Shown piece after piece: positions 10,667-13,810 of a DNA stretch of 64,000 nucleotides (positions within the stretch are counted from its first letter, which is position 1; each line of letters opens with the position of its first letter). Made by a program: the position numbers and the translations under genes. The notes beneath the pieces were generated by a model, which was given only the letters and a program-made list of their open reading frames with translations, ran no database searches and was not told the origin of the DNA. Source of the DNA: Eledone cirrhosa (Eukaryota); assembly GCA_964016885.1 (NCBI GenBank), contig OZ024740.1, positions 262,198,001-262,262,000 on the forward strand, given 5' to 3'.

Positions 10667-11275
10667 TTTGTATTTATCTCCAGTCTTTAGCTATTGATCA
10701 GTTAATTCTATTGATTTTTTAGTTGATCTTATTGACTGATGAATAACTCATGTTAATTTTAACCCGTCTGTTGAGAACTCTAATTCGATATGTGATATTT
10801 TGTATTTTTACAATAATATACACTACTGAATTCATTCGCCTAATATAGGGGTTCCCTCCCTTGCTAGACCCCACGTGGATTTAGTAACGGGTTCCCTTGT
10901 ATATTTGAACGAAACGCCTGTTAGAAAAAGTGGTTTCCTCGTTCATCATTCTACCAGAAGCCGGATATTTTTTATGTAGGCTGACGGTAACTGATTTAGG
11001 AGCCGCAGAAATCAAAATGCTAGAATTTACCATCTTTCTAGCGGGTCCGGGTAAAGATTTTTCATCCATATGTATTATTATTTGTCTGACCCGAATTTTC
11101 ATGGTCGTTTTTCGTCTGTGCGAATGATTTCAAGCATTGTCTGAGTGTGTTGCTATTTAAACGTTAGTTATAGCTCTTGTTTATCCAAACTATTGAGCAC
11201 TTTGCCACGCATTTTGAAGATTATGTTTCGTTATTTTGTAGGCCGAGATTCCGATTCTCGATAATTTATTTGTAT
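10667..11275 (+). mobile_element. ~600-nt noncoding element W, copy A
   Basis: Flanked by (TA)n; near-identical to 11647-12256; diverged homologs at 13137-13810 (-) and 59563-60208 (+). Confidence 0.75.
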
Positions 11276-11646
11276 ATATATATATATATATATATATATA
11301 TATATATATATATATATATATATATATACTTATATATAGGTACATATATATATATATGTATATATATATATGTATATATATGTACCTATATATATGTATA
11401 TATATATATATATATATATATATATATATATATATATATATATATATATACATATGTATATATATATATATATACATATATATATATATATATATACATA
11501 TGTATATATATATATATATATATATATATATATATATATATATATATATAGAGAGAGAGAGAGAGAGAGAGAGAGAGAAATATATATAGGTACACACACA
11601 CATATATATATATATATATATATATATATATATATATATATATATA

Positions 11647-12256
11647 TTTGTATTTATCTCCAGTCTTTAGCTATTGATCAGTTAATTCTATTGATTTTTT
11701 AGTTGATCTTATTGACTGATGAATAGCTCATGTTAATTTTAACCCGTCTGTTGAGAACTCTAATTCGATATGTGATATTTTCTATTTTTACAATAATATA
11801 CACTACTGAATTCATTCGCCTAATATAGGGGTTCCCTCCCTTGCTAGACCCCACGTGGATTTAGTAACGGGTTCCCTTGTATATTTGAACGAAACGCCTG
11901 TTAGAAAAAGTGGTTTCCTCGTTCATCATTCTACCAGAAGCCGGATATTTTTTATGTAGGCTGACGGTAACTGATTTAGGAGCCGCAGAAACCAAAATGC
12001 TAGAATTTACCATCTTTCTAGCGGGTCTGGGTAAAGATTTTTCATCCATATGTATTATTATTTGTCTGACCCGAATTTTCTTGGTCGTTTTTTCGTCTGT
12101 GCGAATGATTTCAAGCATTGTCTGAGTGTGTTGCTATTTAAACGTTAGTTATAGCTCTGGTTTATCCAAACTATTGAGCCCTTTGCCACGCATTTTGAAG
12201 ATTGTGTTTCGTTATTTTGTAGGCCGAGATTCCGATTCTCGATAATTTATTTGTAT
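11647..12256 (+). mobile_element. Element W, copy B (local tandem duplication)
   Basis: Near-identical to 10667-11275, and the adjacent microsatellite interruptions are duplicated too. Confidence 0.75.
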
Positions 12257-12579
12257 ATATATATATGTATATATATATATATATATATATATATATATAT
12301 ATATATACATATATATAGGTACATATATATATGTATATATATATGTATATATATATATGTACCTATATATATGTATATATATATATATATATATATATAC
12401 ATATATATATATATATATGTGTATATATTTATGCATATATATATATATATATGTATATATATATATACATATATATATATATATATATATATATATGAAT
12501 ATATATATATATATATATATATATATATATATATATATATATATATATATATATATATATATATATATATATATATATA

Positions 12580-13132
12580 TGGTGGCTGCCAACTCGTTTT
12601 CGAGTACGGCCACTACTTTATTTCCATGTAGGAGAACCCCTACCGATGCGCTGAACGAGTGTGACTTTTTAGTCCAGCCAGCGACTTGAAAACTCTGGTA
12701 CAAACACTACACTTGTGACAATTATTGACACATAGTGCTTTGCCTTTGGTACCATGTGACGACAAGTGCAGAGAGATCTCCAGATACAAAGCAATGCCTG
12801 TGCCGTGAAGCTTTTATAGTGAGCAAAGGCACTGCACAAAGCCAGTCCCACTCTCTTAACCAAGATAATATTTACCAAAAAGAAGAACAAGTCAACATCA
12901 TTGTATACCATCAGGGTTGCAGGTGTTATATCAGAGTTTTCCTTCTTCTAGAATTCTGCCTTGACAAAGGCTAAGGGTTCATCTCTCCCAGTGATTTTGG
13001 ATGGCCATTGACTCTTAAGAGCTCCTTTGCCCTTTGACAGGTTTTGTTTTTAGTCCTGCAGGATGTCCAAAGTCACCCTCCTCACCAAGAAACCTTGGTG
13101 GGGTTGCCAGTTTAGTCGCCAACGACCCGACC
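12580..13132. mobile_element. GC-richer insert between (TA)n tracts, probable retroelement UTR fragment
   Basis: Sharp (TA)n boundaries, higher GC, no credible ORF; family not identified. Confidence 0.35.
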
Positions 13133-13136
13133 ATAT

Positions 13137-13810
13137 ATACAAGTAAAAATTAGCGAGAATCGAATTTCAGCCCATGAAATAACGAGAAAACAATTTCGAA
13201 TTGTGAGGCAAGCGCTCTATAATTCAAATGAATTAGAGCTTACAACTTACGTTAAAGGCCAAACACACTGATATGGTGGTTAAACTAATTATCCACACAG
13301 CGAAGATTCGATCTCTATTTCGTGTCAAACAGATATACAGATATAAAAATATATGAAAGTATACATGTTTGATACTCACCCGCACCCCTGGAATGATGGT
13401 AAATCCAGTGTTGGGGTTTCTGCGGCTCCATAAGTCATTTACTGTCCACCTACATAAAGGATGTTAAGTTCTCATATCCTGACTGAACTAGGAGTACGCG
13501 TTATCAACGGGATTCATTTCGAAAGACCACATAGATGTGTCTGTAACTGACCCCACGTGGGGTTCAGCAAGGGAGGCAACACCTAAATTAGGCGATTGAA
13601 TTCATCTGTGTATAATATTGCGAAAATCCAAAATATCACAAATCGAATGAAGCTCTCGACAGAGTGGTTAAATATAACAAAGCTATTCGGCAGTCAATAG
13701 AATAGACCAAAACCAGTCAATAAAATTAACTGGCCAATAGCTAGACTCTGGAGATTAATACAAGTAAAAATTAGCGAGAATCGAATTTCAGCCCATGAAA
13801 TAACGAGAAA
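13137..13810 (-). mobile_element. Element W, copy C, with a 53-nt terminal direct repeat
   Basis: ATACAAGTAAAAATTAGCGAGAATCGAATTTCAGCCCATGAAATAACGAGAAA at 13137-13189 and 13758-13810. Confidence 0.75.

What the first reader, a model, noticed from the sequence alone, without database searches (positions are those of the whole stretch)
10667..13810. A ~600-620 nt terminally redundant noncoding family (W) with no recognisable hammerhead
Seen: four copies (10667-11275, 11647-12256, 13137-13810 minus, 59563-60208) in three clearly diverged variants, each inside (TA)n. One end is fixed (..GATTCTCG..TTGTAT). The other end overshoots into a second round by ~7, 53 and ~30 nt (periods ~602, 621, 616). 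Length and short motifs (CTCCCTTGC, CCAYGTG, GAATAGCT..ATTCGA) are conserved, with no shared ORF and no complete HHR. Inference: a circular or template-jumped RNA monomer mobilised by PLEs that may use a different or unknown self-cleaving motif.
Basis: partly seen in the sequence, partly recalled or inferred. Interest (0 to 1): 0.75.

Follow-up and report, generated by a model that had tools for sequence, protein, structure and literature searches.

The report
Retrozyme with a disguised hammerhead ribozyme
This non-coding repeat has thousands of copies in an animal genome and carries an altered hammerhead motif that standard searches miss; it is predicted to cut its own RNA and is likely pasted back into the genome from RNA circles by Penelope-type jumping-gene enzymes.

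Summary
The repeat is real, but it is not ribozyme-less. Each 590-635-nt unit holds a type I hammerhead with a variant core: UUGANRA instead of CUGANGA, one extra base on each side of the stem II base (A/C opposite an invariant A), and long stems II and III. Three of the four window copies carry core mutations, which hid it. An unconstrained alignment fold returns the three-way junction with compensatory pairs. A descriptor allowing both extra bases finds it in 108 of 161 loci; canonical descriptors find 0. The core pattern has 5,590 genome matches against 9 in the control. Insertions have a fixed 3' end in (TA)n about 240 nt past the predicted cut, truncated 5' ends, and head-to-tail arrays of up to about 63 units. 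5' ends pile up 0-29 nt after the predicted cut in two separate samples (3-4-fold), a possible footprint of cutting in vivo. W is therefore a non-LTR retrozyme with a new hammerhead variant; an unrelated family in the same window has the same mismatch. Cleavage, circles and the partner enzyme are untested.

The parts
10667..11275 (+). W1: one unit (602 nt) plus 7 nt of a second round, in (TA)n
11647..12256 (+). W2: 98.5% identical to W1, probably a local DNA duplication of the same insertion
13137..13810 (-). W3: one unit (621 nt) plus 53 nt of a second round
59563..60208 (+). W4: one unit (616 nt) plus about 30 nt; young subfamily (98-99% identical copies)
59828..59963 (+). Intact variant type I hammerhead of W4: stem I strand 59828-59832, U3 at 59833 (UUGAUGA), extra A, long stem II, extra A, G12 at 59919, stem III, C17 at 59958 (predicted cut 59958/59959), stem I strand 59959-59963
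10916..11052 (+). Hammerhead of W1, damaged: one base inserted in the C strand (U3 at 10921), G12 at 11008, C17 at 11047
11896..12032 (+). Hammerhead of W2, same insertion in the C strand; C17 at 12027
13378..13512 (-). Hammerhead of W3: U3-A8 core (U3 at 13507), G12 at 13420, but G at position 17 (13383)
60025..60029 (+). Downstream strand (11089-11093 in W1) that can pair with the bases just after the cut and so compete with stem I; candidate off switch
59765..59786 (+). Conserved CTCCCTTGC...CCAYGTG block (10856-10877 in W1); role unexplained, candidate internal promoter; not found at promoter distance upstream of U6 genes

Best explanation
W is a protein-less mobile repeat whose unit carries a type I hammerhead motif with a variant core; it is predicted to cut itself out of tandem transcripts, likely closes into an RNA circle, and is likely copied round and round into TA microsatellites by a Penelope-type reverse transcriptase/endonuclease. 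Steps: (1, shown) thousands of units, conserved and covarying + strand fold with hammerhead geometry. (2, inferred) read-through or internally promoted transcripts of arrays are cut after GUC, giving ~610-nt monomers. (3, inferred) monomers are ligated; a downstream strand then pairs with the bases after the cut and would keep the circle from recutting. (4, partly shown) the enzyme nicks (TA)n and primes inside the RNA about 240 nt past the cut, using a few bases of A/U microhomology. (5, partly shown) copying runs back to the cut site, where about a third of cDNAs stop (linear templates, or a pause at the ligation point) and the rest continue for up to tens of laps.
For: Core: in 161 loci (one unit each) U3 156, U4 159, G5 161, A6 159, A9 159, G12 160, A13 161, A14 161, A15.1 160, U16.1 158, C17 157, while N7 takes all four bases and position 8 is A 107 or G 53. 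Unconstrained RNAalifold of 28 diverse copies returns exactly stems I, II and III; 7 of 16 pairs have changes on both sides. Named structure: 93.6% of cells paired against 85.7 +/- 1.0 shuffled and 20-48% when slid; 38 double changes against 9.9 +/- 3.0. Descriptor with both extra bases: + strand 108, - strand 0, shuffled 0 of 161. Genome: 5,590 against 9. Right ends: 146 of 159 at one place, 143 of these followed by TA; in 27 W1-type loci they step over a 14-nt AU-rich window. Left ends: 16 of 80 second-lap stops fall 0-29 nt after the cut (4.0-fold, nominal p 1.6e-5, window chosen after looking). In a new sample with the window fixed, 15 of 35 fall at 0 to +24 and none at -37 to -1 (3.2-fold, p 0.001). 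Arrays are clonal: 16 and 18 identical units; in 4 of 13 multi-unit W4-type insertions a variant is fixed in all units and absent from the other 30 insertions; differences within arrays are nearly all private. One insertion has a 5' inversion. U3-A8 is a known natural, active covariation (PMC3088659) and occurs in Penelope-like elements (PMC4209133).
Against: No cleavage, circle or transcript was observed. The stem II base carries an A.A or C.A mismatch, and U.U is reported as the best-tolerated mismatch there (PMC3088659), so cutting may be slow. A third of loci have U3.G8 rather than U3-A8. With flanks, the computed probability of stem I is at most 0.1 in most of 24 copies parsed (two of them mis-parsed) and 0.01 in two circles. 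Only 2 of 7 isolated + strand motifs fold clearly better than shuffles, and 3 of the 7 give the clean junction as lowest-energy fold. [quoted passage not shown] 35% of all columns are also at least 97% conserved. The 28 aligned copies were picked by core motifs and are related; part of the 161 loci were picked by the GAAA and GUC strands and some overlap the same insertion. The 5' pile-up lies in an AT-rich stretch and could reflect microhomology or stalling at structure. In Xenopus 8 of 9 predicted retrozyme dimers did not cleave in vitro (bioRxiv 10.64898/2026.07.22.740005). The partner element was not identified.
Confidence: 0.68

Rival explanations
1. The hammerhead cuts, but no covalent circle forms: arrays come from partly uncut multimer transcripts, or from the enzyme jumping from the 5' end of a linear monomer to its 3' end.
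For: About a third of cDNAs that reach the cut stop there, as expected for linear 5' ends. Five long arrays on one contig share identical units, so one homogeneous array could template the others.
Against: Junctions across the cut are exact over 16-18 laps. Variants fixed across all units of single insertions point to a one-monomer bottleneck, and unit-specific differences did not recur in step between insertions.
Confidence: 0.17
2. The junction is a hammerhead-derived structure that no longer cuts, or cuts very slowly; it is kept as a binding or pause site for the reverse transcriptase, and W spreads from read-through multimer RNA.
For: Two core departures at once (U3.G8 in a third of loci; A.A or C.A at the stem II base), low computed probability of stem I in context, no tertiary contact found.
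Against: The conservation follows the catalytic rule (N7 free, the rest fixed, C17 kept) across subfamilies 65-70% identical and in more distant ones. The 5' pile-up has a sharp edge at the predicted cut. An unrelated young family keeps the same mismatch with a canonical C3-G8 core.
Confidence: 0.1
3. One reading: W is processed by another, unknown self-cleaving motif.
For: Other conserved elements are unexplained: the CUCCCUUGC block, the ACCA loop on stem III and an AGAA/NGAY internal loop in stem II that recalls hairpin-ribozyme loop A (recalled likeness).
Against: A complete hammerhead explains the most conserved block. No matching hairpin loop B strand was found by eye; Rfam finds nothing; the 5' pile-up maps to the hammerhead cut.
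Confidence: 0.03
4. W is a non-autonomous rolling-circle DNA transposon (Helitron-like); arrays come from DNA circles and the RNA fold is incidental.
For: One fixed end and head-to-tail arrays also fit rolling-circle DNA copying (general knowledge).
Against: The ends show no TC or CTRR termini (recalled Helitron rule). The + strand folds and covaries better than the - strand (consensus -101.7 against -88.8; circles -137/-144 against -112). A 5' inversion and a 5' pile-up at an RNA cut site fit reverse transcription.
Confidence: 0.02

Closest known systems
Metazoan non-LTR retrozymes (Cervera and de la Pena 2020, PMC7229834: passages and Discussion read; Li, Clavereau and Pollet 2026, bioRxiv 10.64898/2026.07.22.740005: parts 1-3 of 5 read)
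   Same: Non-coding tandem units with one type I hammerhead each, low GC, monomers to long multimers, coexisting with Penelope-like elements.
   Different: Variant core that canonical and minimal descriptors miss; stems II (~80 nt) and III (~40 nt) far longer than the 4-bp and 1-2-bp helices described as typical; unit ~610 nt against ~300 typical, though 51-972 bp is reported; a built-in competing helix, whereas most metazoan circles are predicted to leave the ribozyme unblocked.
Hammerheads of Penelope-like elements, including the U3-A8 variant of Schistosoma mansoni (Cervera and de la Pena 2014, PMC4209133: parts 1-2 of 4 read)
   Same: Type I order, U3-A8 core, an unpaired base between A9 and G10.1, conserved G10.1-C11.1, short stem I (4-6 bp).
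   Different: W adds an invariant A between C11.1 and G12, tolerates U3.G8, has a full stem III so could act as a monomer, and is not attached to an ORF.
Natural hammerhead core variants (Perreault et al. 2011, PMC3088659: passages and one of seven parts read; Naghdi et al. 2020, PMC7151607: passages)
   Same: U3-A8, a mismatch at 10.1-11.1 (U.U) and a U3...G8 core (with two inserted bases, saltern) are each on record; axolotl HHR_Amex2 also has U.U at the stem II base (PMC7229834).
   Different: An A.A/C.A mismatch fixed with U3 in thousands of mobile copies was not found in searches. Figure 5 and supplementary figures S6-S7 of PMC3088659 were not seen and may list such an insertion; Lunse et al. 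2017 (recalled) was not read.
Penelope-like element insertions (Craig et al. 2021, PMC8557442: passages)
   Same: 5' truncation, partial tandems, occasional inverted 5' copy, microsatellite bias including (TA)n.
   Different: W has no ORF; inverted arms are rare (1 insertion among those behind 159 right ends).

Membership tests
Hammerhead ribozyme, type I | Three helices around the junction in the order stem I - C strand - stem II - GAAA - stem III - UH - stem I | tested here: met
Hammerhead ribozyme, type I | Core U4 G5 A6 N7 A9, G12 A13 A14, A15.1-U16.1, H17 | tested here: met
   157-161 of 161 at each fixed position; N7 free
Hammerhead ribozyme, type I | Pair 3-8 (C-G, or the known U-A covariant) | tested here: inconclusive
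   U-A 102, U.G 53, C.A 4, gapped 2, C-G 0 of 161
Hammerhead ribozyme, type I (canonical consensus) | Stem II starts directly after A9 and ends directly before G12 | tested here: not met
   One extra base on each side: A 114, C 44, G 3 opposite A 161 of 161. Other natural hammerheads also break this rule (U.U), so it marks a variant.
Hammerhead ribozyme, type I | [quoted passage not shown] | tested here: inconclusive
   None recognised by inspection of the alignments
Hammerhead ribozyme, type I | Self-cleavage after N17 | not testable with these tools
   Indirect only: 5' ends pile up after the predicted cut
Non-LTR retrozyme | Non-coding unit | tested here: met
Non-LTR retrozyme | Head-to-tail repeats with a type I hammerhead in each unit | tested here: met
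   arrays of 16 units with the motif in every unit, if the variant core is accepted
Non-LTR retrozyme | Dispersed, mobile copies without LTRs | tested here: met
   copies on many contigs, fixed 3' end, variable 5' end
Non-LTR retrozyme | Expressed as linear and circular monomer RNA | not testable with these tools
Autonomous Penelope-like element (W as its terminal repeat) | Repeat contiguous with an RT plus GIY-YIG ORF | tested here: not met
   PLE-type coding pieces in 24 loci of a set in which 284 hold W (loci overlap); the four upstream same-strand cases have a TA run at W's left junction. Only 1.5-4 kb flanks and three window peptides were used.
HDV-like, twister, twister sister, pistol, hatchet, hairpin ribozymes | Match to the family's covariance model on either strand | tested here: not met
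   Rfam on three natural multimers, E up to 10: one unrelated hit at E 7.7. Rfam also missed the hammerhead, so this test is weak.
Type-SGC (non-circularly permuted) hammerhead | Scrambled order of the three core strands | tested here: not met
   W has the ordinary C, G, cut-site order with nested helices; PMC10085705 seen as search listing only

The most novel reading that the evidence does not exclude
An unpaired A before GAAA, facing A or C after A9, defines an active hammerhead subclass that current descriptors cannot see. It is used by at least two unrelated young mobile families here, so a hidden layer of animal retrozymes, and some 'ribozyme-less' Penelope elements, may carry it. W adds a viroid-style switch that shuts the ribozyme in the circle, and its genomic 5' ends record the cut in vivo.
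Probability: 0.3. Interest if true: 0.72.

Novelty: new variant of a known kind. Interest (0 to 1): 0.52.

Why it matters
Hammerhead and retrozyme surveys rely on CUGANGA...GAAA descriptors. A family with more than 5,000 units escaped them, and a second family shares the mismatch, so counts may be too low and 'no hammerhead' calls need a re-check. W offers natural, evolution-tested alleles (U3-A8 against U3.G8; A.A against C.A) for asking what the core tolerates. The pile-up of insertion 5' ends at the predicted cut links ribozyme processing to retrotransposition, a step that has been proposed for retrozymes; it can be tested with a short transcript.

Tried and rejected
Rfam on the whole window was swamped by microsatellite hits; on three multimers it gave no ribozyme. 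The CTGATGA at 10714-10720, the obvious core candidate, was rejected: it varies (CTGCCGA, ATGATGA, CTGATTA) and lies inside a hairpin. Hairpin, HDV-like, twister and pistol readings of the GAAA/GUC block were tried by eye against recalled consensus motifs and dropped. Full-length RNAalifold did not give stem I; it paired the strand after the cut with the downstream strand. U6-type promoter: upstream regions of 5 U6 loci show an octamer-like element and a TATA box but not W's motif pair at promoter distance; U1 and U2 were not checked. A short-stem version of the same core does not exceed chance (6 against 8). Sequencing runs: no RNA holder listed; this is no evidence on expression. Contigs of four runs coded as four organisms cover 28-30 of 30 bins of W4, and one joins 60204 back to 59589, so relatives hold the family, but contigs show no RNA ends. 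Pfam names none of three PLE-like window peptides, so the label rests on recalled motifs (YRDD, GIY-YIG-like); no language-model look-up was obtained for them. The count of 120 of 137 units with a downstream alternative partner has no null control, and the partner was not seen in two distant copies (L224, L225). Rows left out: 9 full-unit-only insertions and 1 edge case of 104 in sample 1; 25 of 60 loci in sample 2, already seen. The organism was not determined; earlier AI notes call it an octopod.

Full report
Observation. The four stretches exist as described and align over their whole length. W1 and W2 are 98.5% identical with the same left junction and similar flanks, so they are probably one insertion duplicated locally. 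The window lies in a 3.0-Gb genome. Searches with W1, W3 and W4 gave 3,625, 2,826 and 1,764 first-look candidates. Two motif pairs gave 2,233 matches against 0 and 5,387 against 1 in reversed controls. These count units, not insertions, and are lower bounds. At 90% identity 437 units fell into 25 groups, and more distant families appeared later.

Architecture. Of 159 distinct right ends, 146 lie at one position and 143 of those are followed by TA repeats. In 27 W1-type loci the end matches the continuing unit for 4, 6, 10, 12 or 14 bases in 25 cases, as expected if the nicked target primes inside an AU-rich window by microhomology. Left ends are variable. Most full copies are preceded by a truncated one, and exact head-to-tail arrays reach 16 and 18 units, and about 63 in an older array. 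Young arrays are clonal; differences within arrays are nearly all private; 4 of 13 multi-unit insertions have a variant fixed in all units and absent from the other 30 insertions. One insertion has an inverted 5' arm. There is no codon-type conservation, and no copy was seen to run directly into PLE-type coding sequence.

The ribozyme. Rfam finds nothing on natural multimers. The most conserved block, GAAA-CCC...GGG-UC-CGGGU, has the geometry of hammerhead stem III, C17 and the start of stem I. About 85 nt upstream lies the partner strand of stem I followed by UUGANRA. In 161 loci the fixed core positions are kept in 156-161, N7 takes all four bases and position 8 is A or G. G10.1-C11.1 is kept (154 and 161), but it is separated from A9 by A or C and from G12 by an invariant A. 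RNAalifold on 28 diverse copies returns the three-way junction without constraints, and pair counts beat both controls. Stem I shows changes on both sides in 6 of 28 copies at one pair and in 1 at another. These copies were chosen by core motifs and are related, so the shuffle figures are not probabilities. My descriptor finds the motif in 108 of 161 loci on the + strand and in none on the - strand or in shuffles; canonical forms find 0 and the published U3-A8 form 1. The genome holds 5,590 matches against 9. In the window only W4 is intact; W1 and W2 have an inserted base in the C strand and W3 has G17. G17 lowers but does not abolish cutting in tertiary-stabilised hammerheads (PMC3884650, passages).

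Does it cut? Not shown. Indirect evidence: among insertions with one full unit, 16 of 80 second-lap left ends fall 0-29 nt after the predicted cut, a 4.0-fold excess (window chosen after looking). In a new sample, picked only for covering +30 to the 3' end, 15 of 35 fall at 0 to +24 and none at -37 to -1 (3.2-fold, p 0.001). Two junctions sit exactly at position 0 (L189, L276). The stretch is AT-rich, but windows with more TAT/ATA words show no comparable peak. Stalling at structure remains possible. Against fast cutting: the mismatch type, U3.G8 in a third of loci, no tertiary contact found, and low computed probability of stem I in context.

A possible switch. A second strand 20-70 nt after the cut can pair with the same bases as stem I. 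Full-length consensus folds choose it; it was present at 0.74 in one circle and 0.06 in another, with stem I at 0.01 in both. Most metazoan retrozyme circles are predicted to leave the ribozyme free, unlike plant retrozymes and viroids (PMC7229834). The strand was not seen in two distant copies and its frequency count has no control.

Mechanism. Priming 240 nt past the cut means that a linear monomer could give only 240 nt without the ribozyme; longer insertions need a template continuous across the cut. A circle explains this, the exact junctions and the clonal arrays most simply. Uncut multimers or template jumps are the main rival. The enzyme is inferred to be Penelope-type from 5' truncation, partial tandems, the inversion and the TA target (PMC8557442) and from PLE-like ORFs in the window (labels from recalled motifs, no Pfam hit).

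Comparison and novelty. W works like, and by the testable features is, a non-LTR retrozyme (PMC7229834; bioRxiv 10.64898/2026.07.22.740005). U3-A8, a base after A9 and a U.U mismatch at the stem II base are each published. The fixed A before G12 with A or C opposite, combined with U3, was not found in searches; the library lacks most subscription papers, and figures and supplements were not seen. An unrelated young family at 52493-52572 has the same C.A mismatch with a canonical C3-G8 core in 26 of 27 motifs read (the pattern required the spacing, not the bases), so the feature is not peculiar to W.

Verdict. Observation partly confirmed; the unknown-ribozyme reading is not supported. New variant of a known kind. 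Odds by step: hammerhead fold 0.95, cleavage 0.75, Penelope-type enzyme 0.8, covalent circle 0.65. Interest 0.52.

Noticed in passing
window 52493-52572 (+), element about 51890-52625: Hammerhead of an unrelated young family (3,245 candidates, 98-99% identical, ~577-nt unit, often two-armed): canonical CUGAUGA core with the same extra C and extra A at the stem II base and a palindromic stem III.
   Followed up: partly
window 2648-3796 (-), 3938-4399 (+), 49623-50597 (-): Penelope-like ORF pieces with YRDD and GIY-YIG-like motifs (recalled labels; no Pfam hit), the first two in an inverted arrangement.
   Followed up: partly
window 8199-10671: A 2.5-kb, 99% perfect palindrome abutting W1; each arm ends with a CTGATGAAGG...CCGAAA hammerhead-like motif (10548-10590, by eye) and TTGT before TA, like W1 and W3.
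   Followed up: no
window 5971-6287, 21055-21451, 60207-61217, 61762-61987: Another TA-flanked repeat family with a short hammerhead-like motif (CTGAAGA...GAAA); descriptor hit at 61153-61119 on the - strand.
   Followed up: no
window 547-658: CTGATGA, a long stem and GAAAC: a further hammerhead-like motif seen by eye.
   Followed up: no
window 57-247 and about 12 other places: Abundant ~190-nt family that looks like a tRNA-derived SINE (recalled likeness); copies interrupt W units in L134 and L197.
   Followed up: no
G000:C1:81709300-81748700 (L155-L159): W array of about 63 units with a truncated left end in TA; older and more diverged than the 16-18-unit arrays.
   Followed up: partly
L189 left junction (G000:C1 near 18.911 Mb): The end of another abundant element abuts W exactly at the predicted cut with no TA between; possible template switch.
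   Followed up: no
G000:C19:31780605-31840331: Tandem cluster of about 30 U6 snRNA genes at ~1.8-kb spacing, some with a SINE-like insert in the promoter.
   Followed up: no
window 31176-31739: 48-bp tandem repeat, about 12 copies, with an open frame on the - strand.
   Followed up: no
W stems II and III (e.g. 59860-59900, 59936-59950): Conserved AGAA/NGAY internal loop in stem II and ACCA-type loop on stem III; candidates for the missing tertiary contact.
   Followed up: partly
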